NCBI GenBank assembly: GCA_035559535.1
Contig: DATMBG010000052.1
Location: 1 to 64,000 of the forward strand
Direction: 5' to 3'
Source of the DNA: Candidatus Limnocylindrales bacterium
GTDB lineage: Bacteria > Moduliflexota > Moduliflexia > Moduliflexales > JAUQPW01
DNA: 64,000 bases
Part shown: one piece after another, positions 2,583 through 60,083 of the stretch
Numbering within the stretch: the stretch's first letter is position 1
How the letters are laid out: each line of letters starts with the position of its first letter
The notes under the pieces: generated by a model
Told to the model about the DNA's origin: nothing
What the model saw: the letters and a program-made list of their open reading frames with translations, nothing else
Databases searched by the model: none
Program-made: the position numbers and the translations under genes

Positions 2583-3965
2583 CTAGCGTTGATAGGTAAT
2601 ACGATAGAGAACCCCATTCCAGTCATCAGATACCAGGAGAGATCCATCTGGCATGACCTGTACATCGACCGGTCGACCCCAGAATTCCTCACCCTGTAAC
2701 CAACCTTCGGCAAAAACTTCATAACCCGGCGGCTGTCCTGGAGTCAGAGTGACCTGCATCAGCTTGAAACCTGTCTTCTGGGTACGGTTCCATGAGCCGT
2801 GTAAGGCCATAATGATGCGATTCTTGTACTCTGAAGGGAACATATTGCCGGTATAGAATCGCATCCCCAATGCAGCTACATGGGGTCCAAGCTTGAGGAT
2901 GGGAGGTGTGAATTCACTGCAGGAATGCCCTTTCCCGAACTCCGGATCCAGCACATCACCCTGATGACAATACGGATATCCAAAGTGGAGTCCGATGCGG
3001 GGTGCATAGTTCAGTTCATCATTGGGCAAATCATCCCCCAACCAGTCACGACCGTTATCGGTGAAATATAACTCTTTGGTAACTGGATGCCAATCCATCC
3101 CTACGCTATTGCGGACCCCACTGGCAAAGACTTCATAACCACTCCCATCGGTGTTGACCCGTACAATACGGGCATAGGCAGGGGGCGGCTCGCAGATGTT
3201 GCAGGGAGCTCCGATGTTAAAGTAGAGTTTGCCGTCCGGTCCTAAGGCCAGGAACTTCCAGCCATGGGGTTCATCCTTGGGTAGATTGTCTAAAATCACA
3301 ACCGGTGATGGCGGATTATCCAGCCGCTCTTCGATGTTGTCAAAGCGAAGAATACGACTTAATTCGGCGACATACAGGGTGCCATCCTTAAAGGCAACGC
3401 CGTTGGGACGATGAAGCCCTTTGGCAATAACCTTAACCTCGCGACTATTCCCCTTATCTACCACAGCATAAACATTCCCAACCAGGCGGGTACCAACAAA
3501 CACCGTGCCTTTATCGCCGATTGTAATAGAACGGGCGTTCGCTAACCCTTCTGCCCAAATGCTGATCTGGAAGCCGGGGGGTAATTTGATCTTGTCTAAG
3601 GGGATATCTTTGGCCGGTTTGGCAGTGAGCGCAGGGGGGTGAGGTCTCAAGGGGGAATTGGCAAATTCAGGGGGTCGGCCCTGGGTCCCGGGCGGTGGCG
3701 CTCCCGGAGGGGATTGCTGAGCCTGAATCGGCAACTGTATCAGGGCCCATAGCAAAGCCAGGAATGTTACCCTCCTAAGACCATAGGGGATGAAACGATG
3801 CCATAGGCCGGTTATCCGGTTCCCATGCGCAATTGGCTTCTCCCCCTCCGTTAAGTTGCCTCTCTCTGCTCTTTGTCGACTTGAAGCCTGTACGTGCCTG
3901 AAGGGTTGATGATCTCCGTCCGAAGTAGTTTGTAGGAGTTCAGATCTGGTCTGTTTGTTTTCCAT
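2583..3965 (-). CDS. PQQ-dependent glucose/sorbosone dehydrogenase family (beta-propeller)
   Basis: GAPCNIC, GVRNSVG, TDNGRDWLG, GRPVDV motifs; start moved to ATG 3965 (GGAGG upstream), though the true start could be further downstream near the hydrophobic signal. Confidence 0.88.
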   Translation of the reverse strand: MENKQTRSELLQTTSDGDHQPFRHVQASSRQRAERGNLTEGEKPIAHGNRITGLWHRFIPYGLRRVTFLALLWALIQLPIQAQQSPPGAPPPGTQGRPPEFANSPLRPHPPALTAKPAKDIPLDKIKLPPGFQISIWAEGLANARSITIGDKGTVFVGTRLVGNVYAVVDKGNSREVKVIAKGLHRPNGVAFKDGTLYVAELSRILRFDNIEERLDNPPSPVVILDNLPKDEPHGWKFLALGPDGKLYFNIGAPCNICEPPPAYARIVRVNTDGSGYEVFASGVRNSVGMDWHPVTKELYFTDNGRDWLGDDLPNDELNYAPRIGLHFGYPYCHQGDVLDPEFGKGHSCSEFTPPILKLGPHVAALGMRFYTGNMFPSEYKNRIIMALHGSWNRTQKTGFKLMQVTLTPGQPPGYEVFAEGWLQGEEFWGRPVDVQVMPDGSLLVSDDWNGVLYRITYQR

Positions 3966-4000
3966 TTGGATACCTCCCCGTAAAATTCTTGGTTTCCCAG

Positions 4001-4060
4001 TTACGATAAATTTAAAATTCTTTTTGTCAATTAAGATAAATTTGAAATTCTTTTTGTCAA
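4001..4060 (-). promoter_or_regulatory. Tandemly duplicated sigma70-like promoter (2 x 30 bp)
   Basis: Minus strand TTGACA-N16-TATCTT directly followed by TTGACA-N16-TATCGT; the two 30-mers differ at 2 positions. Confidence 0.65.
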
Positions 4061-4118
4061 GTTCTTCATCCGGTAAGTTCTTCACTTATCAAAGAAGCCT
4101 TCTTTCATGATAAAAAGC

Positions 4119-4147
4119 TTGACAAGTAGTTGGAAAGAGATTAGAAC
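4119..4147 (+). promoter_or_regulatory. Putative sigma70 promoter of the tubulin/FtsZ-like gene
   Basis: TTGACA-N17-TAGAAC, 53 nt before the ATG. Confidence 0.45.
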
Positions 4148-4200
4148 GTGTAGGATTTATTAAGTACAAGAAATGGCTTTCATTTTTTTTATAGAGGGAG

Positions 4201-5649
4201 ATGGATATGAAACAAGAATCTCAAGGTTTAGAGATTAGTGTGGTAGGACTTGGACAGTGCGGGGGAAACATCGCCGCTGAATTTTACAAGAGAGGATATA
4301 ATGCCGTAGCGCTCAATACCTCCTATACCGATCTAAGGGCTTTGGAAGCCCTACCCGAGGAGAACAAAGTTTATATCGGTGTAGACGGCAGGAATGGCGC
4401 CGGTAAAGATATATCCCTCGGAAAACGAAGCATTCAGATAAATCAGAACAAGATTCTAAGTGTCATACAGAGATTACTCTCCGGAGCCGATGTTCTCCTG
4501 TTAACCGCAGGTCTGGGTGGAGGTACAGGGAGTAATCTTTCGGAGTTAGCGACCGTTTTAGAACCTTTAAAAGTTTTAACCTCTGCTCTGGTTACCATTC
4601 CTACATCCGGTGAGAGTAGTATTACCAAGGTAAATGCCGTTAAATCGTTGAATAACCTTTTGAGTGCTAACCTGGGGAGTATCATTCTGGTAGATAATCA
4701 GAAAATATTGGAGCAATCTCCTCATATCAGTCTTGCTTCCTTCTATTCACGGGCTAACGCCACCATTGCCGAAGTTTTTAATATTTTTAACACGATTAAT
4801 GAAGAAGCCGATGCCATTAGCATTCGAAGCTTTGATAGTGAAGATTTTAAAAAGGTATTTCTCTCCAGTGGTTTTGTAACCTTTGGATATACCACCCTCC
4901 CTTCCCAGGAGCCTTTGACCAGTCAGGTTTTGGTGGAAAAAATGAGCGAACTCTGGGACTCTGGCGGTATTTTTGCCTCTGGATTTGATTTTTCGGCTGC
5001 TGCTATTTCTGCCGTAATTCTCTTTGCTCCTAAACAAATCCTCACGAAAAGCTCTGCCGATGTTTTTGAGAAATTTACCCATGCTATTAAGGAGATTACC
5101 TCCGGTTCTGCCGTTTACACAGGAATTTATCAGTATACCAAAGAGGACAAACCCATTAAGCTTTATGCCATGCTGGGGAAATTACCTATTCCATCCCGGG
5201 TGAAAGAGTTGTTATCCCAGGCTTTAGATGAGGGTAAGCAACTCTCTCAAAAGGTAAAGTTAGAAATACCTAAGCTGGATTTAAGCGGATTAGAAGGGGT
5301 TGAGTTATTCAGCAGTGCTTCAATGGTAGAGCCTATTTCTGCAAAACCTGAATCCAAGAGAAGATCTGAAGCTGAACGCCGGATGTTGGATTATGACAAG
5401 GTTATTCAATACTTGAAAAAAGAAACCCAACCCCAGAGAAGAAATGAAATTCTCCAACTGGTCCTTGAAGATTATAATAGCGAAGATCCCGATATACGAA
5501 GAAAAGTTATTGAAACTTTAGGGGAAATAGGAGATCCCAGTGTTCGAGCCGTTATCCTGAAGGCCCTGGGTGACAGGGATAAGGCCGTTCAACGAGCTGC
5601 TGCCAGGGCTTTAGAGAAGATTTCGGGCGAAAAGCCGGAGAAAGAATAA
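4201..5649 (+). CDS. Tubulin/FtsZ-superfamily GTPase (TubZ/CetZ-like, not canonical FtsZ) with C-terminal HEAT repeats
   Basis: T1 VGLGQCGGNIA, ALNT, GAGKD, signature GLGGGTGS, LVDN, T7-like SFDSED; C-terminal EDPDIRRKVIETLGEIG/DRDKAVQRAAARALEKI HEAT units; no FtsZ C-terminal peptide. Confidence 0.88.
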   Translation: MDMKQESQGLEISVVGLGQCGGNIAAEFYKRGYNAVALNTSYTDLRALEALPEENKVYIGVDGRNGAGKDISLGKRSIQINQNKILSVIQRLLSGADVLLLTAGLGGGTGSNLSELATVLEPLKVLTSALVTIPTSGESSITKVNAVKSLNNLLSANLGSIILVDNQKILEQSPHISLASFYSRANATIAEVFNIFNTINEEADAISIRSFDSEDFKKVFLSSGFVTFGYTTLPSQEPLTSQVLVEKMSELWDSGGIFASGFDFSAAAISAVILFAPKQILTKSSADVFEKFTHAIKEITSGSAVYTGIYQYTKEDKPIKLYAMLGKLPIPSRVKELLSQALDEGKQLSQKVKLEIPKLDLSGLEGVELFSSASMVEPISAKPESKRRSEAERRMLDYDKVIQYLKKETQPQRRNEILQLVLEDYNSEDPDIRRKVIETLGEIGDPSVRAVILKALGDRDKAVQRAAARALEKISGEKPEKE

Positions 5650-5720: not shown

Positions 5721-5747
5721 GTAGGGCGAAACGTAGTTTCGCCCTAT
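5721..5747. repeat. GTAG-type REP palindrome
   Basis: GTAGGGCGAAAC-GTA-GTTTCGCCCTAT. Confidence 0.7.
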
Positions 5748-5776: not shown

Positions 5777-7525
5777 CTAAGGTATCTTGAGTTTTTGTCC
5801 GGTATAAATCACCATGCCTTTTAATTGGTTAATTTCGGCAAGGGTATCTACTTCAACTTTGTAAAGATTGGCAATCCGCCAGAGAGTCTCTCCTTCTTTT
5901 ACAATATGGATGCGACCCTCGCTTTGCCGGACGGGCAGGCCGGTCTCTACGGTTACAGGGGAAGAAGAAGATACCAATTCACCAGGGAGAGATGGCTGGA
6001 TAAAAGACTTACTCTCCCGGCTGGTTTGGCGGACCGGAAATAGTTTATTGGAACGAAGCCCTTTGGCAGAAGCTTCTGGATTTTTAAGGGAGGCTTCATT
6101 TTCATTTTTGTCAGGGCGGGATGAACGGAATCGCTCAAAATAACTTATGACACTTTGATAAAGGGCTTCTGCAATCCGATCCTGCATAACCGGATTTATC
6201 AAAAGCTGCTCTTCATAGGGATTGCTGATATAAAGGGCTTCTACCAAAACAGAAGGAATACTGGGTATTCTAAGGACCGCAAAGTTGGCCCTTTTTAACC
6301 CCTCATTACGAACCTTTAAGAAGGGAACGGCTTTATCTAAAGTCAACTCACCAAATGCAAGACTTCGGATTAAAGACTCCCCTCCGATAGATTTCTCAGA
6401 TAAAATTCTGTTAATTTCTGGATCCTCTTGATTGAAAACAACCCCACCCATATGATCCGATGCATTTTCTCTCTGGGCAAGGAGTTTAGCCGCTTCGTCT
6501 GTAGCCTCTTCCGACAGGCAATAAACCGAAAAGCCATTCATACTCGTGTCGTAATTGGCATTTACATGGATACTCAGAAATAGATCGGCATCGTGTTCTC
6601 TGGCGATTTGAGTTCGTCGTCCGAGAGATAAAAAATAATCTCTATCTCGGGTCAGGTAGGCTTTAATATCCCTGGTTTGATCCAGCCAATATTTCAACTT
6701 TTTAGCGATATTCAAAACAATATGCTTTTCCATGGAGCCATTTCGACCGATGGCCCCTGAATCACTTCCGCCGTGTCCTGGGTCGATCACGACAACTTTA
6801 TAATTCTGTCGGTCTCTATTTCGGGTTATTTGAGGTGGTTTTTTAAATTCAACCTCCTTTTCCTTGGGATGGAAAATATTGACCATAAGACGGTCTGGTT
6901 GATCATTGGTCTTTTCAATGGGAGATACTTTAAATTCCGGCCGGGATTGAACTAAATCAAAGACGACCTGAAATCGCCCGCTGGTTAAACGCTGAAGTCG
7001 AATGGTTTTAACCGCCCTATCATAAACTTGAATGGTTTCTTTCTCCTGAATGTATTTACCCCGAGTGAACTCAACGACCAGGCGAGGAGGATCTTCCAGG
7101 GTATAGGTGTGATAAGACCCACTCCTGGGACTTCGATTTAAATTAACCACTACCTGAGTCTGGTCGGGGGCCAGCCAGTATTCGACACCGGTGATAAGGA
7201 TCGGTTCTTCATTTATAACCGGATAAGAACGATCGGTTGAATCCCCTGTCTCGAACTCCTTTGCATAAGTTTCTGCCCCTGATTCTTTAGAAACCTCTGA
7301 AGGGGAAGGAATCCGAGAATCCAACCTTGCCGGAGAGTCTTCTGTTATCTGGGGGGTTATATAGGAATTGGTTTTTTCGGTTACAGCGGGTTTTTCCAAA
7401 GCCAAAACCGGCTTGTATTCCTTCATAAGGAGAGCTGACGGAGAAGAAGTGGAATGATAACGAGAATTTAAGAATAAGAATAAACCACCTGAGATAAGCA
7501 ATAACCAAAAGATGCGCCTTTTCAT
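5777..7525 (-). CDS. N-acetylmuramoyl-L-alanine amidase (AMIN + Amidase_3 + LysM), AmiC-like
   Basis: N-terminal TM/signal, DPPRLVVE (AMIN), DPGHGG...E...SIHVN...LVE Zn/catalytic residues, C-terminal HIVKEGETLWRIA LysM; ATG 7525 has an SD. Confidence 0.92.
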   Translation of the reverse strand: MKRRIFWLLLISGGLFLFLNSRYHSTSSPSALLMKEYKPVLALEKPAVTEKTNSYITPQITEDSPARLDSRIPSPSEVSKESGAETYAKEFETGDSTDRSYPVINEEPILITGVEYWLAPDQTQVVVNLNRSPRSGSYHTYTLEDPPRLVVEFTRGKYIQEKETIQVYDRAVKTIRLQRLTSGRFQVVFDLVQSRPEFKVSPIEKTNDQPDRLMVNIFHPKEKEVEFKKPPQITRNRDRQNYKVVVIDPGHGGSDSGAIGRNGSMEKHIVLNIAKKLKYWLDQTRDIKAYLTRDRDYFLSLGRRTQIAREHDADLFLSIHVNANYDTSMNGFSVYCLSEEATDEAAKLLAQRENASDHMGGVVFNQEDPEINRILSEKSIGGESLIRSLAFGELTLDKAVPFLKVRNEGLKRANFAVLRIPSIPSVLVEALYISNPYEEQLLINPVMQDRIAEALYQSVISYFERFRSSRPDKNENEASLKNPEASAKGLRSNKLFPVRQTSRESKSFIQPSLPGELVSSSSPVTVETGLPVRQSEGRIHIVKEGETLWRIANLYKVEVDTLAEINQLKGMVIYTGQKLKIP

Positions 7526-7662
7526 AGCTAACCTTTCCTCCACAACCTGTTGAGATTCGGTGAATCAGATCAACTGCTTGCCATTACCATAACCACGGGC
7601 AGATGTCAAGGACTTTTCTCTTTCTTTCGGACAAAAATTGTAAGATATCCCGAAGTCCCCGG

Positions 7663-9057
7663 CTAATCCAATCCAAATACTTGCCCGGTTACACCGTCGA
7701 CCTCCCGCTTTTTCAGCCTGCCTGCCACATACAATCCTTCTAAGATGGCTTCGGTTACCGAGGCTATCACCTCATCAACCTCCTTTAATCCCTGATCCTG
7801 AATATATCGGTCAACCAGCTTTTTTAATTCAGGTTCCGAATCCAGTTGTTGAACATATTCAGCGCCGACCATGTTGGGGGAAACACGAAAATTGCCAATA
7901 GATAGGGTTTCCCAATTATATTTGGCAAAGTGCCGCGTACAGATTTTTAGGATAGCCTGCCTGCATAGCTCATCGATGATTTGATCTTTGCTTTTAGATG
8001 CCATATAGGTCAGTTCCAGCTTTGGATACATAGAAGCCCGAATGGCATTCAAATCCGAAATCCGTGGAACAGGGGGAACATTTTTTAGATCGAATCGCTC
8101 TTCGGCCTGGCTGATCAGGTTTTCGTAATTATCGATGGTCATCCGTACGCTGGTCCCTTTGACCTGATCCACATCGGGATGGTTCCTCGCCTCCAGGGTA
8201 ATCTGTACGATGATTTCCTGCATAAAGACAGGTACGATAGGTTGAGAATCTCGATTACTAAAGGCTTCCTGAACCATAATCTCGCGCTCTTCTTCAAGGG
8301 TGCGTGGATAGTGGGTATAGATACCACTACCAAACCGGTCCAGGAGGGGTTCGACGATTTTACCGGCTGTGGTGTAGTCCACCGGATTGGCCGTTGCAAC
8401 CAAGAGCAAGTCTACGGGAAACTCTATGGGATAGCCTTTAGCCACTACGATTCCTTCTTCCATTAAGTTAAAAAGAGAAACCTGGGTCTTAGGAGCTAAA
8501 TCCGGAAGCTCATCGATGTAGAGAATTCCATTATTGGCCTGAAGGGCCTTACCCGGAGAGAAGGTAGCAGGATCAATGAGATAACGTCCTTCGGCTACTT
8601 TGATGGGATCAATATCTCCGATGATTTCAGAACTTGAAATATCTGTGGTGGAGAGAATCTGGCGAAAACGCTCTCGTCCGGTAATCCACCGAATTTTAGC
8701 CTCTTTTCCTTTCTCGGCAATGAGCGTTTTGCAGAAATGACACAGGGGATGAAGGGGATTATCATTGATGGGGCAGCCTTCCAGTACGGGAATTTCATTT
8801 AATAAAGAGGACAACTGGCGGGCTATTTTAGATTTTGCCTGACCTCGTTCTCCGATCAACAAGACATGATGACCCGAACGAAGGGCATTATAAAGCTGGG
8901 GAATAACCGTATCGCTATAACCGATGAGTCCTTCAAAAACAGGCTCTCCGGCTCTTAATTTCCTCCGTAAATTGGTTCTGATCTGTTCGATCACCCTAGG
9001 TCTTTTATAGTCTTGGGCTATTAAATCACCCAAAGTCTTTATTTCAGCGTGAATCAT
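7663..9057 (-). CDS. ChlI/MoxR-like AAA+ ATPase (Mg-chelatase subunit I-related)
   Basis: Walker A GERGQAKS, Walker B YIDELPDL, ATANP, LLDRFG; start taken at ATG 9057. Confidence 0.85.
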   Translation of the reverse strand: MIHAEIKTLGDLIAQDYKRPRVIEQIRTNLRRKLRAGEPVFEGLIGYSDTVIPQLYNALRSGHHVLLIGERGQAKSKIARQLSSLLNEIPVLEGCPINDNPLHPLCHFCKTLIAEKGKEAKIRWITGRERFRQILSTTDISSSEIIGDIDPIKVAEGRYLIDPATFSPGKALQANNGILYIDELPDLAPKTQVSLFNLMEEGIVVAKGYPIEFPVDLLLVATANPVDYTTAGKIVEPLLDRFGSGIYTHYPRTLEEEREIMVQEAFSNRDSQPIVPVFMQEIIVQITLEARNHPDVDQVKGTSVRMTIDNYENLISQAEERFDLKNVPPVPRISDLNAIRASMYPKLELTYMASKSKDQIIDELCRQAILKICTRHFAKYNWETLSIGNFRVSPNMVGAEYVQQLDSEPELKKLVDRYIQDQGLKEVDEVIASVTEAILEGLYVAGRLKKREVDGVTGQVFGLD

Positions 9058-9091
9058 ATAAGGAAATTGAGGGTTATAAAAATAAAAAGGG

Positions 9092-10033
9092 TTAGGCAAA
9101 CCAGGTTTTTACCATCCCTTCGACTAAGGAATAGGGGTCTGCTTCTCGATTGACTATTTTTGAAAGGAGCCGGGCAAACGCTTCCCGGTCGCCTACTTTG
9201 GCCATAGCTTGTTGCATCAGGTTATGTTGTAAAATTTCCAGGAATTCACTTTCGGTCTGGTTGAGTTTCCTTTTTTTAAGCTCTCCTGAATCTTTCAGAT
9301 AGCTCAGATGGGCATCGATACCTTCGACAAGTGCGGGAATTCCTTCCTCTTTGACGGCTATAGTTTTATAAATAAGAGGTTTCCAGCTTTTTTGCTGGTA
9401 GGTATTAAATCCCAGCATGATTTCTAATTCCTTGACCATTTTATCGGCTCCTTCCCGATCTGCTTTATTAACTACGAAGATATCTCCGATTTCGAGGATA
9501 CCTGCTTTAATGGCCTGGATATCATCGCCCATGCCGGGTACTGTAATGACGAGGCACGTATGGGCCGTTTTAACAATTTCCACCTCATCCTGTCCCACTC
9601 CAACGGTTTCTATGAGGATGATGTCCATTCCATAAGCATCCAAAATATGAACCACATCATGGGTCGCCACGGCTAACCCGCCCAGGTGGCCCCGGGTCGC
9701 CATACTCCGGATAAAAACCCCTTCATCCAGGTAATGGCGCTGCATACGGATTCGATCACCTAAAATGGCACCTCCGGTAAAGGGACTGGTGGGATCGACG
9801 GCAATAATTCCCACGGTCTGCCCACGGCTTCGAAACGCCGAGGTGAGTTTATCGACTAAAGTGCTTTTTCCGGCTCCTGGAGCTCCTGTAACACCTAAAA
9901 TATAAGCTCGTCCGGTATGCGGATAAAGGGCTTTTAAGGCCGGTAGTGCCTCCGGGTCTCCATTTTCTACTAAAGTAATGAGTCGGGCAACTGCACGAAC
10001 ATCCTTGCTTAAGACACGGTCTGCTAACTTCAA
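9092..10033 (-). CDS. meaB: Acyl-CoA mutase-associated GTPase chaperone MeaB
   Basis: GAPGAGKST, AVDPTSPFTGGAILGDRIRM, ETVGVGQ, NKAD. Confidence 0.95.
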   Translation of the reverse strand: MKLADRVLSKDVRAVARLITLVENGDPEALPALKALYPHTGRAYILGVTGAPGAGKSTLVDKLTSAFRSRGQTVGIIAVDPTSPFTGGAILGDRIRMQRHYLDEGVFIRSMATRGHLGGLAVATHDVVHILDAYGMDIILIETVGVGQDEVEIVKTAHTCLVITVPGMGDDIQAIKAGILEIGDIFVVNKADREGADKMVKELEIMLGFNTYQQKSWKPLIYKTIAVKEEGIPALVEGIDAHLSYLKDSGELKKRKLNQTESEFLEILQHNLMQQAMAKVGDREAFARLLSKIVNREADPYSLVEGMVKTWFA

Positions 10034-10039
10034 GTACCG

Positions 10040-10149
10040 GTGGGAGGGGATAGGAGTATGGGAATAGGGGCGACCGGCCGGTCGCCCGTATCAGGAAGTA
10101 AGGGTGACCGGCCGATCACCTCTACTCCCATACTCCTATACTTCCATTC
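10040..10149. repeat. Octamer-unit hairpin array enclosing two GTAG-type REPs (10064-10091, 10098-10125)
   Basis: GGAGTATGGG arm, GGGCGACCGGCCGGTCGCCC and GGTGACCGGCCGATCACC palindromes, then CCCATACTCC arm. Confidence 0.8.
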
Positions 10150-11290
10150 ACTCTTTTAATAACTGATTGGCAATAACCATTCGATGAATTTCCGAAGTTC
10201 CTTCGCCAATTTCGCAGAGTTTGGCATCTCGATAATAGCGAGACACGGGATATTCCCCGATATATCCATAGCCGCCATGGATTTGAACGGCTCGATCTAC
10301 AACCCGAACACAGGCCCGAGAGGAATAAAGCTTGGCCATGGAGGCTTCTTTCTTGATAGGTAAACCTTGATCCTTAAGATAAGCGGCTCGAAGGGTTAAC
10401 ATTCTGGCAGCTTCCAATTCTACTTCTGAATCGGCCAGCATCCATTGAACAGCCTGAAAATCTGCAATAGGTCTACCAAATTGAATTCGCTGTTTGGAAT
10501 ATTTAATGCTTTCTTCCAAAGCCGCACGTCCAATCCCAACAGCTAACGCAGAGATCCCGATACGTCCACCTTCCAGAACCTTCAGGCTGTCTATAAAACC
10601 CTGTCCTTCCTGCCCCAATAGGTTTTCCCTGGGAATACGACAGTTCTCGAAGATCAACTCTGCGGTATCGCTTCCCCGCATTCCCAACTTGTTGCGTAGT
10701 TTAACAGAAGAAAATCCCCGGGTTCCTCTCTCTACCAGAAAGGCTGAGATACCATGATGTCCCTTGGTTTTATCTGTAATAGCCATAACGACAACAACAT
10801 CACAGACTGTCCCTTGGGTTGTAAACATCTTGCTTCCGTTTAAGACCCATTCGGAGCCATCGAGTACGGCTGTGGTACGAAGGGATTTAGCATCACTGCC
10901 AGAGTTTGGCTCGGTTAATCCCCAGGCACCCAGGAGTTCTCCCTGAATAAGGGGAATTAAATATTTTCGTTTCTGTTCTTCATTCCCGGCCAGATAGATA
11001 TGGTTCGAACAGAGAGAAATATGGGCCAGGGCACTCAAAGCGATAGAACCGTCGGCTGCGGCCAATTCTTCCATAGCCAGTGCATAGGTCACGTAATCGG
11101 CTCCAACTCCTCCCCATTCCTCCGGGAAGATAATCCCAAAAAAGTTGATAAGGGCCAATTTTCTAAAAATTTCCTCGGGAAACTCTTCCCGTTCATCATA
11201 GTAAGCCGCATAGGGAGCCACTTCCTTCTGGACAAACTCCCTGACGGTCTGTTGGATCAACTTCTGATCCTCTGTTAAATCAAAATCCAT
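10148..11290 (-). CDS. Acyl-CoA dehydrogenase (paralog 3)
   Basis: [40 protein letters not shown]. Confidence 0.95.
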   Translation of the reverse strand: MDFDLTEDQKLIQQTVREFVQKEVAPYAAYYDEREEFPEEIFRKLALINFFGIIFPEEWGGVGADYVTYALAMEELAAADGSIALSALAHISLCSNHIYLAGNEEQKRKYLIPLIQGELLGAWGLTEPNSGSDAKSLRTTAVLDGSEWVLNGSKMFTTQGTVCDVVVVMAITDKTKGHHGISAFLVERGTRGFSSVKLRNKLGMRGSDTAELIFENCRIPRENLLGQEGQGFIDSLKVLEGGRIGISALAVGIGRAALEESIKYSKQRIQFGRPIADFQAVQWMLADSEVELEAARMLTLRAAYLKDQGLPIKKEASMAKLYSSRACVRVVDRAVQIHGGYGYIGEYPVSRYYRDAKLCEIGEGTSEIHRMVIANQLLKE

Positions 11291-11297
11291 TTTTAAC

Positions 11298-11448
11298 ATG
11301 GAAATGTGGGAGTATGGAGGTAGAGAAGTGTGGGAGTATGGGAGTGTGGGGGTATATTTGTGCTCTTACACTCCCATACTCCCACACTTCTGTACTCCCA
11401 TACTTCCATACCCCCACACCTCCACACTTCCCTGCTTCCCTACTTCTT
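11298..11448. repeat. Octamer-unit (GGGAGTRT / AYACTCCC) inverted tandem array
   Basis: G-rich arm of 8-bp units followed by a complementary C-rich arm. Confidence 0.85.
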
Positions 11449-11449
11449 T

Positions 11450-11944
11450 CTAAGCGGGTACAAAGTACACATCGGTGGGTTTGAATTTGCAATTCCGTAA
11501 GAATTGAGCCTTGACCCGCATCCCAATTTCGGCTTTACCGGGCTCCACCCCAACCAGACGGCTTAAAAAGAGGGTATTAACCCCTTCAAACTCTACCAGA
11601 ATAAGGGTAAAAGGGGTTTCTTTTAGAAATTCTTCGCTTCCAAAATAACAGGTGGTCCAGGTATGAATTTTCCCTTCCAGGGGTAATTCAAACCATTCAG
11701 TTTTTGCTCCACATTCCATGCAGTGAGATCGGGGTGTCGCAAACTTATAGTTACATTGCGTACATCGACTTCCTAAAAGTTTTTTCTTGGTCAATCCGGC
11801 AAAAAAAGGGGAATCTTGGGCATAACTATGGATATAGTCGATTTCATAATGGTGTTTGATGATAATGGGGTCTACACCAAAAAGAACTGTTCCTTCTTCT
11901 GTTTCAGGTAATTTAATTTTTTGGGCTCCTGGTTCGTGACTCAT
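11450..11944 (-). CDS. DUF35 Zn-ribbon/OB-fold protein (thiolase partner)
   Basis: CTQC...CMEC Zn ribbon, GKIHTWT, IGMRVKA OB fold; the upstream ORF extension is repeat DNA, so the start is set to 11944. Confidence 0.9.
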   Translation of the reverse strand: MSHEPGAQKIKLPETEEGTVLFGVDPIIIKHHYEIDYIHSYAQDSPFFAGLTKKKLLGSRCTQCNYKFATPRSHCMECGAKTEWFELPLEGKIHTWTTCYFGSEEFLKETPFTLILVEFEGVNTLFLSRLVGVEPGKAEIGMRVKAQFLRNCKFKPTDVYFVPA

Positions 11945-11952
11945 GATTTTAA

Positions 11953-12039
11953 GTAGGGGAGTGTGAGGGTATGGGAGTATGGGAGTACTTCCACACTTCC
12001 ACACTTCCATACTCCCATACCCTCCACACTCCCCTACTC
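11953..12039. repeat. Octamer-unit inverted tandem array
   Basis: GGGTATGGGAGTATGGGAGTAC / TTCCACACTTCCACACTTCCATACTCCCATAC. Confidence 0.85.
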
Positions 12040-12040
12040 T

Positions 12041-13291
12041 TTAAACGGCTTCCAAAATACTTACGGTGATATAGGTTCCCGTTCCGGCATGGCTATGAAT
12101 AAGTCCACGTCGGGCGTTTTTAATCTGGAGATGGTCATTTCCCAGATGTTTCTGGATAGTCCCCTGAAGTTGCCAGAAAGCAAAAACAGCCTGCATGAGG
12201 CCTGTAGCACCTACCGGATGACCGCAGGCCAGAAGGCCACCGGAAGGGTTAACCGGTATTTTTCCAGTTAAGGTACTATGACCGGCCTCGATAAAGGGGC
12301 CTCCTTCCCCATACTTACAAAGACCCAGATCTTCGTAGGTCTGAATCTCAGAAGAAGTATAGGCATCGTGTAACTCTACAAAATCCAGTTCTTCCAGGGG
12401 GTTTGTAATTCCGGCCATCTCATAAGCCTGTTTAGCGGCCATTCGACCTCCCCGAAACGAATGAACCCCGGGGTATTTGAGATTTTTGTAATCAGACTCA
12501 GATTCGTGGGGTAACAAAATGACTTTACCGTGGGGACGATCTGCCATACGCATGCTATCGGTACCTGCGCCGATTCCGATGATTTTAACCGGTTTGTCGG
12601 TTAAGCGGGCCGCCATTTCTTCCGAAGCGAGAATACAAACTGCTGCTCCATCCGACATGGTGCAGATATCCAACATGGTCAGGGGGTCTGCAACCATGGG
12701 CGAGTTACGAACATCTTCAATGGTCAATTTCATAGGACTCTGGGCATAGGGGTTATAGAGAGCATTTCCGTGATTTTTTATGGAGACCAGGGCCATTTGT
12801 TCTACGGTGGTACCAAACTCATGCATATGCCGTCGGACCATCATGGCGTAGTAACCGGTATAAAATCCTCCCACAGGGTAATCAAAATTAGTATCGGAGG
12901 CGTGGGCGATAAATTCGTTGCCTTTCCAGGTGCTGACACGAGACATGGTTTCAAATCCAAAGGCCACGCAAACATTCATTCGGCCTGAGGCAACAGCCTC
13001 CCATGCTGCTTGAAAACAGAGCCCACCCGTAGCTCCCCCTCCTTCGATCCGTTTAGAAGGCTTGGGGCAAAGTCCGAGGTAGTCTTGAACCATAGAGGCC
13101 GCTTTCAATTGCCGGGTAAAGTGATCTGAAAAATAAGACGCTACGCTTCCATCGATCATATCCCTTGTCAGGTTTGGGACATCGTTCATGGCATAGTCAA
13201 AGGCCTGTTTGACCATATAACGAAAATCCATATCCGGGTGAGCTTTGGCAAATTTTGTAATTCCACCCGATACCATGTAAACGGGGCGCAT
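12041..13291 (-). CDS. SCP2-type thiolase-fold protein lacking the nucleophilic Cys
   Basis: KNHGNA, SDGAA, ELHDAY, NPSGGLL..GHPVGATG; EGGGATGG occupies the usual xxxCASG position. Confidence 0.88.
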   Translation of the reverse strand: MRPVYMVSGGITKFAKAHPDMDFRYMVKQAFDYAMNDVPNLTRDMIDGSVASYFSDHFTRQLKAASMVQDYLGLCPKPSKRIEGGGATGGLCFQAAWEAVASGRMNVCVAFGFETMSRVSTWKGNEFIAHASDTNFDYPVGGFYTGYYAMMVRRHMHEFGTTVEQMALVSIKNHGNALYNPYAQSPMKLTIEDVRNSPMVADPLTMLDICTMSDGAAVCILASEEMAARLTDKPVKIIGIGAGTDSMRMADRPHGKVILLPHESESDYKNLKYPGVHSFRGGRMAAKQAYEMAGITNPLEELDFVELHDAYTSSEIQTYEDLGLCKYGEGGPFIEAGHSTLTGKIPVNPSGGLLACGHPVGATGLMQAVFAFWQLQGTIQKHLGNDHLQIKNARRGLIHSHAGTGTYITVSILEAV

Positions 13292-13299
13292 TTATTACA

Positions 13300-13408
13300 G
13301 GTATGGAGGTATGGAGGTAGGTATGGGGGTGCGGGGTATGGGAGTAAGTATTTATACTCCCACCCTTCCATACTCCCACCCTTCCATACTCCTACCCCTC
13401 CCATACTA
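13300..13408. repeat. Octamer-unit inverted tandem array
   Basis: GGTATGGAGGTATGGAGG... / ...CTTCCATACTCCCACCCTTCCATACTCC. Confidence 0.85.
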
Positions 13409-13813
13409 TTTTTTAATGTTTTCTCTCAAAAACTTGATAACCTCTTCCGTAGAAGTTCCCGGAGTGAAGATTTCCTTCACACCCATTGCCTTGAGTTTAG
13501 CAATATCTTCATCGGGGATAATTCCCCCTCCAAAGAGCATCACGTCTTCCAAACCTTTTTCCTTCATAAGCTCCAGGACACGCGGGAAAAGATAGTTGTG
13601 AGCTCCCGATAAAATACTCAATCCTATGGCATCCACGTCTTCTTGAAGGGCCGTGGCAACCACCTGTTCTGGGGTCTGGTGAAGTCCGGTGTAGATCACC
13701 TCCATTCCGGCATCCCGCAATGCCCGGGCAATGATTTTCGCACCTCGATCGTGCCCATCTAATCCCGGTTTAGCGATAAGCACCCGTATTTTTTTCTGTT
13801 TTTCCTCGGCCAT
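13406..13813 (-). CDS. icmB: Acyl-CoA mutase small (cobalamin-binding) subunit
   Basis: [10 protein letters not shown] (DxHxxG), SILSG, GGGII; ATG 13813. Confidence 0.9.
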
Positions 13814-13980
13814 ACGTTTGGGTCCCGGAGGTCCGGAGAGCACAGAGGAAATTTTTATAACCTAAATCTTTAGATCCCTCGTTTGGGATGTTCTGGATTA
13901 AAACCGACAGAGTCGGTCTTATCAGGGTTTCGGTTTCATTCTGACGTATTTCCTTCTCCATGTTCTCCGGGTCTCTGGGA

Positions 13981-15660
13981 CTAAAAAAATCCCGGATCCT
14001 GGTAAATCCCGAAGACTTCCCTAAACACGTCGCAGATTTCTCCAACGGTTGCGTAGGCTTTTACTGCTTCAAGGACCGGAGGTACAAGGTTTTCCTTTCC
14101 CTTAGCTGCGGCACGAAGTTGCTCTAAAGCCGCTTTATGTTTGATCGGATCTCTTCTTTTTTTCACATTCTCCAGCCGTTCGAGCTGCTTTTTTTCTACT
14201 TCAGGGCCGATTTTTAATATTTTAATCGGGGTTTCCTCCTTGGCTACAAACTCATTCACGCCCACGATAATTTTCTCCTTATTCTCGATTTGTTTCTGGT
14301 AGGTGTAGGCAGCTTCTTGAATTTCCTTTTGCGGGAAACCCTGATGAATGGCCGGAATCATTCCCCCCAGGGCATCCAATTTTTTAAAGTAATCGTAGGC
14401 GGCTTCTTCCATCTCATTGGTCAATCTTTCGAGGTAGTAAGAGCCTCCCAGGGGATCCACCGTATTTGTAACTTCGCTTTCATAGGCAATAATCTGTTGA
14501 GTTCGCAGGGCAATGGTTACCGCTTCTTCTGTGGGGAGGGCTAAGGTTTCATCGTAGGAGTTGGTATGCAGGGATTGGGTTCCTCCTAATACGGCGGCCA
14601 GAGCTTGAATGGTTGTTCGGATGATATTATTTAAGGGTTGCTGGGCGGTTGCCGAGCATCCGGCGGTTTGTGTGTGAAACCGAAGCATCAAGGAGCGAGG
14701 ATTTTTGGGGTTATAGCGGCGTTTCAGCTCACGGGCCCAGATCCTTCGGGCCGCCCGGTATTTTGCGATTTCTTCAAAGAAATCATTATGGGCGTTGAAA
14801 AAGAAAGAGAGTCTGGGTGCAAACTCATCCACTTCCAATCCGGCCCGGATTCCATAATCTACATAAGTTAATCCATCGTAAAGGGTAAAGGCAAGTTCTT
14901 GAACGGCGGTAGATCCAGCTTCTCGTATGTGGTAACCGCTGATACTGATACTGTTCCACCGGGGCATATGGCGTGTGCAGTAAACGATAATATCGGTCAA
15001 AATTCGCATGGCCGGTTCGGGTGGACAGATCCACTCCCGTTGAGCAATGTACTCTTTTAAAATGTCTGCCTGGAGGGTTCCGCGGAGTTGGGCCGGTGGA
15101 ACTCCCTGTTTCTCTGCGACTGCCAGGTACATGGCCAGAAGGACGATAGCCGGTCCATTAATCGTCATGGAGGTGCTGATTTGATCCAGAGGTATGCCTT
15201 TGAAGAGAATTTCCATATCTTCCAGGCTATCAATAGCCACGCCCTCCCGACCAACTTCTCCTCGAGATATGGGATGATCTGAATCATAACCCATGAGGGT
15301 CGGAAGATCAAAGGCTACACTAAGTCCCATCTGTCCCTGGCTTAGAAGATAGTGAAATCTCCGGTTGGTATCTTCAGCCGTACCAAAACCGGCGAATTGA
15401 CGCATAGTCCAGAGTCGCCCCCGATGCATGGTTGCATGAATCCCACGGGTGAAAGGATATTCTCCAGGAAATCCGATGTCTTCATTATAATCCATCCCGG
15501 CAATATCTAAAGGGGTATACAGCACTTTAACAGGTCGATTGGAGAGGCTGACAAACTTAGCCTGTCTCTCCGGCATAACCTCCAGGGTTTTCTTCAAGGT
15601 GGTCTGTTCCCATTGGACTTTACGTTCTTGAATTTTTTTTAAACTTTGGACGTCGATCAT
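13981..15660 (-). CDS. icmA: Acyl-CoA mutase large subunit, isobutyryl-CoA mutase type
   Basis: [10 protein letters not shown] (Phe where MCM has Tyr) and DILKEYIAQ (Gln where MCM has Arg), [17 protein letters not shown] 15660. Confidence 0.85.
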
Positions 15661-15666
15661 AACTAA

Positions 15667-15758
15667 GTACTGAGTGTTGAGTACTGAGTACTGAGTCAAA
15701 GAGAGAGGATTAAGTAGGGACACGGCACGCCGTGTCCCTACTGTTCAGTACTCAGTAT
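15667..15758. repeat. Heptamer (GTACTGA) array with complementary arm, enclosing a GTAG REP (15714-15741)
   Basis: GTACTGAGTGTTGAGTACTGAGTACTGAG ... GTAGGGACACGGCACGCCGTGTCCCTAC ... TTCAGTACTCAGTA. Confidence 0.75.
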
Positions 15759-60078: not shown

Positions 60079-60083
60079 GTCCA

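What the first reader, a model, noticed from the sequence alone, without database searches (positions are those of the whole stretch)
4201..5649. Stand-alone non-canonical tubulin/FtsZ GTPase fused to HEAT repeats
Seen: an intact GTPase core (GQCGGNIA, GAGKD, GGGTGS, DxxD T7-like loop FDSED), a linker, then two HEAT/PBS-lyase-like units. There is no FtsZ C-terminal FtsA-binding peptide, no dcw genes, no TubR-like neighbour or iteron array, and it has its own promoter. Known: the GQxG T1 loop is typical of tubulin, CetZ and TubZ, whereas FtsZ has GGGG. In eukaryotes HEAT-repeat (TOG) domains bind tubulin. Inference: a chromosomal, uncharacterised bacterial cytoskeletal protein with a built-in HEAT adaptor. 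It is convergent with an AMIN-amidase-LysM gene, but a functional link is unproven.
Basis: partly seen in the sequence, partly recalled or inferred. Interest (0 to 1): 0.78.

Follow-up and report, generated by a model that had tools for sequence, protein, structure and literature searches.

The report
HEAT-capped chromosomal TubZ-like tubulin homologue
This gene encodes an intact second bacterial relative of tubulin and FtsZ, from an undescribed chromosomal family that ends in a floppy linker and a small HEAT-repeat hook, so it probably builds GTP-driven filaments that grab an unknown partner, possibly at the dividing cell wall.

Summary
ORF 4201-5649 (+) encodes a 482-aa protein (likelier start 4207): an intact tubulin/FtsZ GTPase core, a disordered linker, and a five-helix HEAT-like cap.

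It is not the cell's FtsZ. It scores 95 bits against a 295-bit cut-off, and a canonical ftsZ lies in an ftsQ-ftsA-ftsZ cluster on another contig.

By sequence, profile and predicted fold, its closest characterised relatives are plasmid TubZ/RepX, then CetZ, then FtsZ. It has no TubR gene, no iterons and no plasmid setting.

It belongs to a large, apparently undescribed chromosomal family. A family-specific profile finds the same terminal cap in 67 of 126 closest members, after linkers of about 30-500 residues.

The window's neighbours are not conserved family-wide. Even so, 9 of 11 HEAT-form loci, in all three deep clades, lie next to septal-wall or division genes: an AMIN-amidase, an M23 peptidase, an RlpA-like gene, or mraZ-mraW-ftsL-ftsI.

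Best reading: a GTP-driven filament with a partner-docking hook, perhaps accessory to division or wall splitting. Function is inferred, not shown.

This scan met the same kind of protein twice before on other DNA (e1-7229922, e1-2431582).

The parts
4201..5649 (+). Whole ORF (482 aa plus stop); likelier true start at the second ATG, 4207 (480 aa)
   Evidence: SD position; homologue N-termini; Atlas record starts at residue 3
4231..4713 (+). Tubulin/FtsZ GTPase domain (residues 11-171)
   Evidence: Pfam PF00091 E 7e-20; model pLDDT above 94
4252..4275 (+). T1 loop GQCGGNIA (residues 18-25)
   Evidence: G18 Q19 C20 G21 G22 N23 A25 invariant in 20 homologues
4396..4410 (+). GAGKD (residues 66-70)
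   Evidence: G66 A67 G68 D70 invariant in 20 homologues
4516..4533 (+). T4 signature GGGTGS (residues 106-111)
   Evidence: invariant in 20 homologues; G107 and G110 invariant in 119 sequences
4831..4848 (+). T7-like loop FDSEDF (residues 211-216), with two Asp in the DxxD spacing of the FtsZ catalytic loop
   Evidence: invariant in 20 homologues; D212 kept in at least 90% of 119 sequences; lies between helix 178-197 and helix 213-220 of the model. The equivalence to FtsZ's catalytic Asp pair is my recall of FtsZ
4822..5211 (+). C-terminal (activation) domain of the core, TubZ-like_C (residues 208-337)
   Evidence: Pfam PF22453 E 6e-9
5194..5259 (+). Long C-terminal helix of the core (residues 332-353), H11-like
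   Evidence: model; the TubZ structural alignments run to residues 352-355
5269..5310 (+). Conserved acidic-hydrophobic linear motif PKLDLSGLEGVELF (residues 357-370)
   Evidence: P357, D360 and F370 invariant in 20 homologues; motif present in HEAT-less and long-tailed members
5260..5367 (+). Disordered linker (residues 354-389)
   Evidence: pLDDT 43-77; segment 367-386 below 50; linker length varies up to 499 residues, median 94, in the family
5368..5640 (+). C-terminal cap: a leading helix pair plus two HEAT/PBS-type repeats (residues 390-480)
   Evidence: Pfam HEAT_2/HEAT/HEAT_PBS; alphaRep matches; five helices at pLDDT above 90; cap profile hit 390-480, E 6e-41 (this protein was a seed)
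4194..4200 (+). Shine-Dalgarno-like GAGGGAG
   Evidence: read from the sequence
4119..4124 (+). TTGACA (-35-like) in the divergent intergenic region; weak -10 (TAGAAC) 17 nt later
   Evidence: read from the sequence; not called by the consensus scan
5722..5746 (.). Perfect 11-bp inverted repeat with a 3-nt loop between the two convergent stop codons; a possible bidirectional terminator hairpin
   Evidence: I7; not called as a terminator, which requires a T run
5777..7543 (-). Convergent AMIN-Amidase_3-LysM gene (AmiC-like septal amidase type). A possible functional neighbour, not a proven part
   Evidence: Pfam; adjacency kept in the 98% and 80% identity relatives L003 and L065 while the upstream genes differ in L065

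Best explanation
The gene encodes a second tubulin-superfamily GTPase of a chromosomal TubZ-like family. It is not the division protein FtsZ. The core keeps every nucleotide-binding loop and the T7 Asp pair, so it most likely polymerises head to tail with GTP, and hydrolysis is triggered when one subunit's T7 loop completes the next subunit's active site (inferred from conservation and fold). After the core come a long helix, a conserved acidic-hydrophobic motif, a disordered linker and an 85-residue HEAT-like cap. This layout parallels FtsZ (core, flexible linker, terminal docking peptide) and TubZ (a flexible tail that binds partners). The cap is therefore read as a hook that ties the filament to a partner protein that is still unknown (inferred). 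In the lineage of this window the partner is probably connected with cell division or the splitting of septal peptidoglycan, because the gene repeatedly sits beside such genes (an inference from gene neighbourhood only). My sub-odds are: polymerising GTPase 0.8; cap is a partner-docking module 0.65; division or septal-wall link 0.4.
For: Intact core: Pfam Tubulin plus TubZ-like_C, and T1, T4, T6 and T7 motifs invariant in 20 homologues. AF2 model pLDDT 91.6. Fold matches: TubZ-Bc Z 39.9 (342 residues aligned, 2.5 A), TubZ-Bt 37.1, CetZ2 35.6, FtsZ at most 30.2, tubulins about 27 (Foldseek order agrees). Not FtsZ: 95 bits against a cut-off of 295. A canonical ftsZ with FtsZ_C lies in a MurB-FtsQ-FtsA-FtsZ block. 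5 of 5 other carrier genomes tested also have a canonical FtsZ (one of them, G005, is unpublished). Family: 129 representatives at E below 1e-30; none of 42 sampled distant hits has FtsZ_C. Family-core HMM scores: members 330-470 bits, plasmid TubZ 154-184, CetZ1 125, FtsZ 74-90. In the tree FtsZ splits from the rest at SH-aLRT 100, and the window protein sits in a starred 14-row clade. Cap as family hallmark: 67 of 126 proteins with core score of 400 or more end in it; 6 of 26 at 330-400; 5 of 103 below that. Linker up to 499 residues, median 94. Other members carry a PilM/FtsA-like domain, a ParA/MinD-like domain, or a hydrophobic segment plus Cds6_C at the same end, which fits a swappable tether. 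TubZ's unstructured C-tail binds partner proteins and tunes assembly (PMC5322520, abstract read). Division and wall context: 9 of 11 HEAT-form loci, in all three deep clades (below 50% identity between clades), have such a gene within about 8 kb. The AMIN-amidase is in 3 of 3 clade-W loci, with a Maf-like gene as well in L065. mraZ-mraW-ftsL-ftsI lies directly downstream on the same strand in 2 of 2 clade-Y loci. An M23 peptidase lies upstream in 3 of the 4 clade-X loci that hold upstream sequence, and L009 has an RlpA-like DPBB_1 gene. G000, G001 and G002 each hold only 2 Amidase_3 and 3-5 M23 matches. The same nine queries hit 0 of 37 other family loci (410 kb).
Against: No experiment exists for any member, so polymerisation, GTPase activity and partner binding are all inferred. 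No partner gene is conserved across the family. The window's own neighbours are shared only within its close clade. Fibrobacterota members sit behind a suf operon and Myxococcota members among Ser/Thr kinases. The division-context pattern was noticed post hoc. It rests on three clades in which synteny is inherited, and the genes are not in one operon with the tubulin gene (convergent in the window, gaps of 360-580 bp in clade Y). L008 and L011 show none of these genes, though L011 is only 2962 bases. The control is weak: the queries came from the HEAT loci themselves and must cross phyla. The amidase is periplasmic by its N-terminal hydrophobic segment, so a cytoplasmic cap could reach it only through a membrane partner. 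The gene is absent from 0 of 7 genomes of the sister family of the same phylum (completeness 77-97%), so it is dispensable for division in close kin. The tree has one CetZ and no PhuZ, BtubA/B or tubulin rows, and the deeper branches (83-89) are not starred.
Confidence: 0.45

Rival explanations
1. It is a cargo-positioning or scaffold filament unrelated to division. The filament and HEAT hook position some other cellular structure (a protein complex, a compartment or an envelope machine), and the wall and division neighbours are inherited synteny or chance.
For: No partner is conserved family-wide. The terminal modules in other members point to varied tethers: PilM/FtsA-like, ParA/MinD-like, a TM-like segment plus Cds6_C, and an N-terminal glycosyltransferase. 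Fibrobacterota and Myxococcota contexts have no wall or division genes. The gene is missing from 0 of 7 sister-family genomes.
Against: Four different kinds of septal-wall or division genes lie next to the gene in all three deep HEAT-form clades, 9 of 11 loci, although such genes are few per genome.
Confidence: 0.27
2. It is a chromosomal type III (TubZ-like) DNA-segregation motor in which the HEAT cap replaces the TubR-binding tail and couples the filament to a DNA-bound adaptor encoded elsewhere.
For: The closest characterised relatives by sequence, profile and fold are plasmid TubZ/RepX. TubZ uses its C-tail to bind partners (PMC5322520 abstract).
Against: There is no TubR-position gene: all five plasmid loci fetched have a small gene of 309-360 bp directly upstream, whereas here the upstream gap holds only a divergent promoter region. 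There is no iteron array. The setting is chromosomal, with LptF/LptG and methylmalonyl-CoA mutase nearby. No DNA-binding neighbour recurs. In the tree, plasmid TubZ lies in a different 21-row group.
Confidence: 0.07
3. It is a component of an NTP-dependent conflict or defence system of the kind that combines tubulin homologues with GTPases, HSP70 or MoxR-vWA modules.
For: Such systems with tubulin-domain proteins are described (PMC7159879, passages read). The distribution is patchy. A MoxR-like AAA gene lies two genes away.
Against: The defence models hit only the HEAT region, weakly (17-18 bits). No vWA, GAP1-type GTPase or HSP70 neighbour is present, and the AAA gene overlaps meaB on the opposite strand in a separate gene string. 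The gene is not a compositional outlier (GC z -1.05, rank 7 of 47). The core is highly conserved across phyla, which is unlike diversifying conflict genes.
Confidence: 0.05
4. It is a non-polymerising GTPase switch or regulator that merely keeps the tubulin fold.
For: Nothing specific; no member has been tested.
Against: The T7 Asp pair and the longitudinal-interface elements, which matter only in a polymer, are invariant. The full two-domain fold plus the H11-like helix is kept.
Confidence: 0.05

Closest known systems
TubZ / RepX (tubulin-like motors of type III partition systems of Bacillus plasmids and clostridial phage; PDB 4ei7, 2xka, 3j4s, 4xcq)
   Same: It is the best solved relative by sequence (E 1e-18 over residues 10-341), by fold (Z 39.9, 37.1, 33.0) and by family-profile score (154-184 bits). 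It shares the TubZ-like_C domain, the long C-terminal helix, and a flexible tail beyond it. 16 plasmid records match at 23-29% identity over the longer alignments.
   Different: The window gene is chromosomal, with no TubR gene and no tubC iterons. T1 is GQCGG here, against GLGMGG in the four plasmid TubZ seen. The tail ends in a folded HEAT cap. Plasmid TubZ falls in a separate 21-row group of the tree.
CetZ (archaeal tubulin/FtsZ-family cell-shape proteins; PDB 4b45, 4b46, 3zid)
   Same: The fold is nearly as close as TubZ (Z 35.6, 34.2, 33.1). It has a GQxGG-type T1 loop. It is a non-division paralogue that coexists with FtsZ.
   Different: CetZ is archaeal. It scores 125 bits with the family profile and branches outside the 70-row bacterial radiation (support 89, a single CetZ row on a long branch). 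It has no HEAT cap.
FtsZ (canonical division protein)
   Same: It belongs to the same superfamily and uses the same polymerisation logic. The overall layout is alike: globular core, disordered linker of variable length, conserved terminal docking element. In two relatives the gene sits at the head of the dcw cluster.
   Different: 95 bits against a cut-off of 295. No FtsZ_C. T1 is GQCGG, not GGGGG. Fold Z is at most 30.2. The genome has its own canonical ftsZ. FtsZ splits from the family at SH-aLRT 100.
FtsZl1 and FtsZl2 (Makarova and Koonin 2010, PMC2875224; passages read)
   Same: They are non-canonical FtsZ-like paralogues that coexist with FtsZ. FtsZl2 likewise has no conserved gene context.
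   Different: FtsZl1 has a coiled coil, lacks T6-H7, sits in vWA operons and corresponds to Pfam Tubulin_2. The window protein has T6 and T7, no Tubulin_2 hit and no vWA neighbour. FtsZl2 matches PF00091 only by HHpred (E 0.0033) and has a roughly 300-aa alpha/beta C-region. The window protein hits PF00091 at 7e-20 and has a TubZ-like C-domain.
TOG domains (eukaryotic tubulin-binding HEAT arrays)
   Same: They are HEAT-type helical repeats associated with a tubulin-family protein.
   Different: By my recall a TOG is about six HEAT repeats and 220-250 residues.

Membership tests
FtsZ (canonical) | Scores over the curated equivalog cut-off of the ftsZ model TIGR00065 (295.2 bits) | tested here: not met
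   95.3 bits and 97.7 bits in the genome search; the C7 gene scores 433 bits
FtsZ (canonical) | FtsZ_C C-terminal domain (PF12327) | tested here: not met
   Not listed at E up to 0.1; TubZ-like_C is found instead. The C7 FtsZ has FtsZ_C at E 1e-34
FtsZ (canonical) | Location in the division (dcw) cluster next to ftsA and ftsQ | tested here: not met
   The window neighbours are a GSDH-like gene and an amidase. The C7 gene follows FtsQ and FtsA. Two relatives do lie upstream of mraZ, at the far end of the cluster from ftsZ
FtsZ (canonical) | Short conserved C-terminal peptide that binds FtsA or ZipA | tested here: not met
   The C-terminus is a folded five-helix HEAT cap. What the FtsZ peptide looks like is my recall
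TubZ / RepX (type III partition) | Tubulin/FtsZ fold with a TubZ-type C-domain, a long C-terminal helix and a flexible tail | tested here: met
   PF22453 E 6e-9; Z 39.9 over 342 residues to 4ei7; helix 332-353 followed by a disordered stretch
TubZ / RepX (type III partition) | A small DNA-binding TubR gene directly upstream in the same operon | tested here: not met
   No ORF lies in the gap, which holds divergent promoter-like sites. Four Bacillales plasmid loci have such a gene
TubZ / RepX (type III partition) | Centromere-like iteron array (tubC) | tested here: not met
   The only tandem repeat nearby is a 2 x 30 nt repeat at 3993-4052 that carries minus-strand promoter-like hexamers
TubZ / RepX (type III partition) | Encoded on a plasmid or phage | tested here: not met
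   The window carries LptF/LptG, methylmalonyl-CoA mutase and a thiolase. There is no phage match. Plasmid matches are only 23-29% identical over the longer alignments
TubZ / RepX (type III partition) | Groups with plasmid TubZ in a phylogeny | tested here: not met
   Plasmid TubZ (4 rows, support 100) lies in a 21-row group, and the window lies in a separate 46-row group. The separating branches have support 83-87 and are not starred
CetZ | Archaeal lineage that groups with CetZ1 and CetZ2 | tested here: not met
   All named carriers are bacterial. The CetZ1 row branches outside the 70-row group (support 89; one long row, so this is weak)
FtsZl1 (Pfam Tubulin_2) | Match to Tubulin_2 (PF13809); coiled coil; loss of T6-H7; vWA operon | tested here: not met
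   No PF13809 hit at E up to 0.1. T6 (DNxKIL) and T7 are present. There is no vWA neighbour. Definitions are from PMC2875224 passages
FtsZl2 | PFL_1302-type: only remote similarity to PF00091, and a C-region of about 300 aa with mixed alpha/beta structure | tested here: inconclusive
   The described features do not fit (PF00091 E 7e-20; a 130-aa TubZ-like C-domain plus HEAT), but I held no FtsZl2 sequence to compare directly, and I did not open the paper's supplementary lists
Tubulin / BtubA-B | Tubulin_C domain and closest fold match to tubulins | tested here: not met
   No Tubulin_C was listed. BtubA, OdinTubulin and eukaryotic tubulins score Z of about 27, below TubZ, CetZ and FtsZ. No tubulin row was in the tree
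PhuZ / phage tubulins | Phage-encoded, with sequence similarity to phage tubulins | tested here: inconclusive
   tblastn against 50,697 phage records found no match at E up to 1e-3. One PHROG of unknown function matches at E 1.8e-7. No PhuZ sequence was in the tree
HEAT / PBS-lyase-type repeats | Match to HEAT repeat models and a paired-helix repeat structure | tested here: met
   HEAT_2 E 1e-12, HEAT 5e-6, HEAT_PBS 1.6e-4; alphaRep E 6e-28; five helices at pLDDT above 90
TOG domain | About six HEAT repeats forming a tubulin-binding paddle (my recall) | tested here: not met
   The cap has only five helices in about 85 residues

The most novel reading that the evidence does not exclude
This is a second, FtsZ-independent tubulin-type cytoskeleton of diderm bacteria that governs the splitting of septal peptidoglycan. 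Filaments of the TubZ-like core would use the linker and HEAT cap to engage the cytoplasmic face of a membrane regulator of M23/LytM factors and AMIN-amidases, in a manner analogous to FtsZ-FtsEX-EnvC-amidase. The wider family would then be a modular 'filament plus swappable hook' system (HEAT, PilM/FtsA-like, ParA-like, membrane anchor) that has so far been overlooked.
Probability: 0.15. Interest if true: 0.85.

Novelty: new variant of a known kind. Interest (0 to 1): 0.64.

Why it matters
The bacterial tubulin homologues with known roles are few: FtsZ in division, TubZ and PhuZ in plasmid and phage DNA positioning, BtubA/B, and CetZ in archaea. This is a large, strongly conserved chromosomal family with all polymerisation motifs intact. 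It has a layout that mirrors FtsZ's core-linker-hook design and a set of interchangeable terminal modules, yet no paper was found on it. If it forms filaments, it adds a new cytoskeletal system to several poorly studied phyla (Nitrospirota-type lineages, Fibrobacterota, Myxococcota). It also offers a natural experiment on how tubulin-like filaments are coupled to cargo. The recurring neighbourhood with septal-wall hydrolase and dcw genes gives a concrete, testable hypothesis about its role.

Tried and rejected
1. Complex prediction of the core (1-376) against the cap (386-482), using alignment A1: ipSAE 0.00 and 0.00, no verdict. This says nothing for or against a TOG-like self-contact.
2. Expression: no RNA holder was listed among 11 runs. 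This is no evidence either way.
3. Phage relatives: no tblastn match in the phage collection with the protein. A plasmid TubZ query found only Bacillus phage G, which I did not use.
4. Defence libraries: PADLOC hits fall only in the HEAT region at 14-18 bits. I rejected them as signs of a defence system.
5. HEAT gains and losses from Pfam labels: 3 changes on the tree. The AU test did not finish on 77 rows. On a 42-row LG+G4 tree a single HEAT clade was rejected (p-AU 2.5e-82). I set this result aside because the Pfam labels proved incomplete: the cap profile finds the cap in many rows that Pfam misses. With the better labels, 22 of 77 rows carry the cap, with 4 changes, all inside one 36-row clade. 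One origin followed by losses is my inference from the collinear caps.
6. SLOG/LOG-like gene as the cap's partner: it lies downstream in all 6 clade-X loci but is absent from the window genome (95.8% complete) and from G003 at E up to 1e-10. I rejected it as a general partner.
7. Recent horizontal transfer: the gene is not a compositional outlier.
8. Iterons and TubR: none found.
9. Earlier findings searched by sequence: none.
10. My first neighbourhood pass used a crude longest-ORF caller. In GC-rich loci it hid mraZ and mraW behind shadow ORFs (corrected), so other neighbours may still be mis-called.
11. The resemblance between the Fibrobacterota terminal peptide (YSLEEYVKLKK) and the cap's first helix was seen by eye only and was not tested.
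Full report
**What is there**
ORF 4201..5649 (+) encodes 482 residues. Pfam finds a Tubulin/FtsZ GTPase domain (residues 11-171, E 7e-20), a TubZ-like C-terminal domain (208-337, E 6e-9) and HEAT repeats (HEAT_2 at 426-477, E 1e-12, plus HEAT and HEAT_PBS). They are invariant in an alignment of 20 homologues that share the layout: GLGQCGGN, GAGKD, GGGTGSN, DNxKIL and FDSEDF.

An AlphaFold2 model built on 119 family sequences is confident (mean pLDDT 91.6). It shows a globular core (11-353) that ends in a long helix (332-353), a disordered stretch (about 354-389) and five helices (390-475). The tail also matches designed alphaRep HEAT proteins (E 6e-28).

The Shine-Dalgarno sequence GAGGGAG (4194-4200) abuts the first ATG. 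The second ATG (4207) is therefore the likelier start, and the closest homologues and the Atlas record begin there. The gene is divergent from its upstream neighbour and convergent with the downstream one, so it is monocistronic by arrangement. The consensus scan called no + strand promoter in the gap. By eye there is a perfect TTGACA at 4119-4124 followed by a weak -10.

**It is not the cell's FtsZ**
The curated ftsZ model gives 95 bits against a cut-off of 295. The same genome has a gene scoring 433 bits on contig C7. That gene carries FtsZ_C and follows a Mur ligase, MurB, FtsQ and FtsA. Five of five other carrier genomes tested also have both a canonical FtsZ (407-436 bits) and the paralogue (62-95 bits). 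One of these genomes, G005, is unpublished.

**Closest characterised relatives**
- **Sequence against solved structures.** The best core match is RepX/TubZ of a Bacillus plasmid (E 1e-18, spanning residues 10-341). FtsZ follows (4e-16, GTPase domain only), then a CetZ (3e-14).
- **Fold.** TubZ-Bc Z 39.9 (342 residues, 2.5 A), TubZ-Bt 37.1, CetZ2 35.6, phage c-st TubZ 33.0, FtsZ at most 30.2, tubulins and BtubA about 27. Foldseek gives the same order.
- **Family-core HMM.** Members score 330-470 bits, outer TubZ-like groups 200-350, four plasmid TubZ 154-184, a CetZ1 orthologue 125, and six canonical FtsZ 74-90.
- **Tree.** I built a quick IQ-TREE tree of 77 rows: 66 proteins that I picked from the 262 held, plus 11 references. 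FtsZ separates from the rest at SH-aLRT 100. CetZ1 comes next, as a single long branch. The remaining 70 rows (support 89) contain plasmid TubZ in a 21-row group (87) and the window protein in a separate 46-row group (83). Within that group the window protein lies in a starred 14-row clade (98).

The tree holds no PhuZ, BtubA/B or tubulin rows, and the deep branches are not starred. The safe statement is 'a distinct chromosomal family within a broad TubZ-like radiation, outside FtsZ'.

**Why it is not a TubZ partition system**
All five plasmid loci fetched that encode TubZ/RepX-like proteins have a small gene directly upstream, in the tubR position. The window has no such ORF and no iteron array. 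The only tandem repeat nearby is a 2 x 30 nt repeat carrying minus-strand promoter-like hexamers. The window also carries LptF/LptG, methylmalonyl-CoA mutase, a thiolase and a transporter, so it is chromosomal. The gene is not a compositional outlier.

The FtsZl1 definition (coiled coil, no T6-H7, vWA operons, Pfam Tubulin_2) is not met. The description of FtsZl2 does not fit either, but I could not compare sequences directly.

**The family**
The all-against-library search found 10,377 proteins at E up to 1e-3 and 129 at E up to 1e-30. The word-based search found about 30 clusters with the same Pfam layout, in MAGs labelled Nitrospirae/Nitrospirota or Deltaproteobacteria. It also found many HEAT-less members in Fibrobacterota, Zixibacteria, Latescibacteria and Myxococcota. 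None of 42 sampled distant hits has FtsZ_C. Several carry other appended modules: PilM/FtsA-like (P0035), ParA/MinD-like (P0172), Cds6_C preceded by a strongly hydrophobic segment (five proteins), and an N-terminal glycosyltransferase (P0197).

Directly after the core helix, most of the inner family keeps an acidic-hydrophobic motif. It is PKLDLSGLEGVELF here, at residues 357-370.

**The cap is a family hallmark, and Pfam under-detects it**
At first Pfam labels suggested that HEAT was gained or lost at least three times, and an AU test rejected a single HEAT clade. The two Pfam-labelled HEAT clades, however, have collinear caps: a leading helix followed by two DPD-type repeats. One protein that Pfam does not label ends in the same way.

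I then built a profile from nine such tails. It hits 86 of the 262 proteins held. Seven of these are unrelated giant HEAT proteins. The other 79 are family members, nearly all (78) with the hit within 15 residues of the C-terminus.

By core score the cap is present in:
- 67 of 126 proteins at 400 bits or more;
- 6 of 26 at 330-400 bits;
- 2 of 47 at 250-330 bits;
- 3 of 56 at 150-250 bits.

The linker from core to cap has a median of 94 residues and reaches 499. On the tree, 22 of 77 rows carry the cap, all inside one 36-row clade, needing 4 changes. I read this as one origin followed by losses or replacements, which is an inference. The profile was seeded with the window protein and its relatives, so hits to the seeds themselves are by construction.

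**Distribution**
The window's GTDB phylum holds nine species genomes. The gene is in both genomes of the window's genus and in none of seven genomes of the sister family (completeness 77-97%). It is therefore not essential in close kin.

**Neighbourhoods**
The window's own neighbours are shared with the 98%-identical L003. In the 80%-identical L065 only the amidase is kept. Across phyla nothing is conserved: Fibrobacterota members follow a SufB-SufC-SufD-SufS-NifU string, and Myxococcota members sit among Ser/Thr kinases.

The 11 HEAT-form loci (the window, L003-L011 and L065) tell a more specific story. Their proteins fall into three clades that are less than 50% identical to each other.
- **Clade W** (window, L003, L065): all three have the convergent AMIN-Amidase_3-LysM gene. 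In L065 the upstream genes are different, and a Maf-like gene lies between the tubulin gene and the amidase.
- **Clade Y** (L004, L007): in both, the gene lies directly upstream of mraZ-mraW-ftsL-ftsI on the same strand.
- **Clade X** (L005, L006, L008-L011): an M23 peptidase lies upstream in three of the four loci that hold upstream sequence. L009 has an RlpA-like DPBB_1 gene. A SLOG/LOG-like gene lies downstream in all six.

In total 9 of 11 loci have a septal-wall or division gene nearby. L008 and the 2962-base L011 have none. Such genes are scarce: G000, G001 and G002 each hold 2 Amidase_3 and 3-5 M23 matches. The same nine query proteins hit none of 37 other family loci (410 kb).

The limits of this result are real. 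I saw the pattern post hoc. Loci within a clade share ancestry. The genes are not co-operonic with the tubulin gene. The control is weak, because the queries came from the HEAT loci and must cross phyla. No formal null was run.

**How it most likely works**
Shown: an intact two-domain tubulin/FtsZ fold with conserved nucleotide loops and the T7 Asp pair; a disordered linker; a conserved terminal HEAT-like cap; and coexistence with a canonical FtsZ.

Inferred:
- GTP-dependent head-to-tail polymerisation, with hydrolysis triggered by the T7 loop;
- the cap as a docking hook, by analogy with FtsZ's terminal peptide and with TubZ's partner-binding tail (PMC5322520, abstract read), and because other members carry tether-like modules at the same position;
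- a link to division or septal-wall splitting in this lineage, from gene neighbourhood alone.

The amidase has an N-terminal hydrophobic segment and is presumably periplasmic, so any coupling would have to pass through a membrane protein.

**Literature and earlier notes**
Six full-text searches found no paper on this architecture or on Pfam's TubZ-like_C. I read passages of PMC9871819, where every 'HEAT' hit was the word 'heatmap'. I also read passages of PMC7159879 (tubulin-containing conflict systems), PMC10936438 and PMC2875224, and the abstract of PMC5322520. I opened no supplements, and subscription-only papers are not covered.

This scan noted the same kind of protein twice before on other genomes (e1-7229922 and e1-2431582), with the same reading. 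Those are unchecked AI notes and not independent evidence.

**Verdict**
The protein is a new variant within a known superfamily: an apparently undescribed chromosomal TubZ-like family with a linker-plus-HEAT-cap design. Its function is unproven. A role beside the division and septal-wall machinery is the most specific hypothesis the data allow.

Noticed in passing
window 3993-4052 (and 4054-4125): A 2 x 30 nt tandem repeat (83% identical) lies here. Each copy carries a minus-strand TTGACA-16-TATCxT promoter-like site. Both copies lie inside the listed 5' end of the GSDH-like ORF (2583..4085), where they encode a duplicated KKNFKFI peptide. The real start of that gene is probably the Met at about 3965, and the promoter appears to be duplicated. 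An imperfect inverted repeat (4054-4077 / 4102-4125) places TTGACA on both strands of the divergent region.
   Followed up: partly
window 5722-5746: A perfect 11-bp palindrome with a 3-nt loop lies between the convergent stop codons of the tubulin-like gene and the amidase gene. It may be a shared terminator hairpin, but it has no T run.
   Followed up: no
window 7663-16883 (- strand): A string of minus-strand genes lies here: methylmalonyl-CoA mutase, a thiolase-like gene, a ChsH2-type OB-fold gene, an acyl-CoA dehydrogenase, MeaB, and a 478-aa MoxR/Mg-chelatase-like AAA ATPase whose end overlaps meaB by 8 nt. The AMIN-amidase follows. An AAA ATPase between meaB and a cell-wall amidase is an odd combination.
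   Followed up: no
window 60075-61409 (+): This 444-aa ORF has the lowest GC in the window (0.374 against a mean of 0.460) and no Pfam hit at E up to 1e-8.
   Followed up: no
P0035 (818 aa), P0172 (722 aa), P0197 (812 aa), P0165/P0170/P0171/P0173/P0186: Some family members are fused to other cytoskeletal or positioning modules: one polypeptide combining tubulin-like and PilM/FtsA-like actin-fold domains, a fusion with a ParA/MinD-like ATPase, an N-terminal glycosyltransferase fusion, and forms with a TM-like segment plus a Cds6_C NTF2-like domain.
   Followed up: partly
L012-L030, L042 (Fibrobacterota loci): The HEAT-less family gene sits at the tail of a SufB-SufC-SufD-SufS-NifU string and before a 636-aa ACAD9-like acyl-CoA dehydrogenase. 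These proteins end in a conserved basic peptide (YSLEEYVKLKK...), which by eye resembles the first helix of the HEAT cap. L012 belongs to an unpublished genome.
   Followed up: partly
L034, L036, L038, L039, L045 (Polyangiaceae/Myxococcota loci): Family members here are flanked by several Ser/Thr protein kinase genes, including ones of about 1070-1100 aa, and by two conserved genes of unknown function (clusters c13 and c22).
   Followed up: no
L004 3705-6262: A type II restriction-modification pair (an Eco57I-type methylase and a XamI-type endonuclease) lies just upstream of the tubulin-like gene and the dcw cluster in this relative.
   Followed up: no
L008-L011, L005, L006: A roughly 150-aa SLOG cluster-4 (LOG-like) gene lies downstream of the tubulin-like gene in all six clade-X loci. 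It is absent from the window genome.
   Followed up: yes
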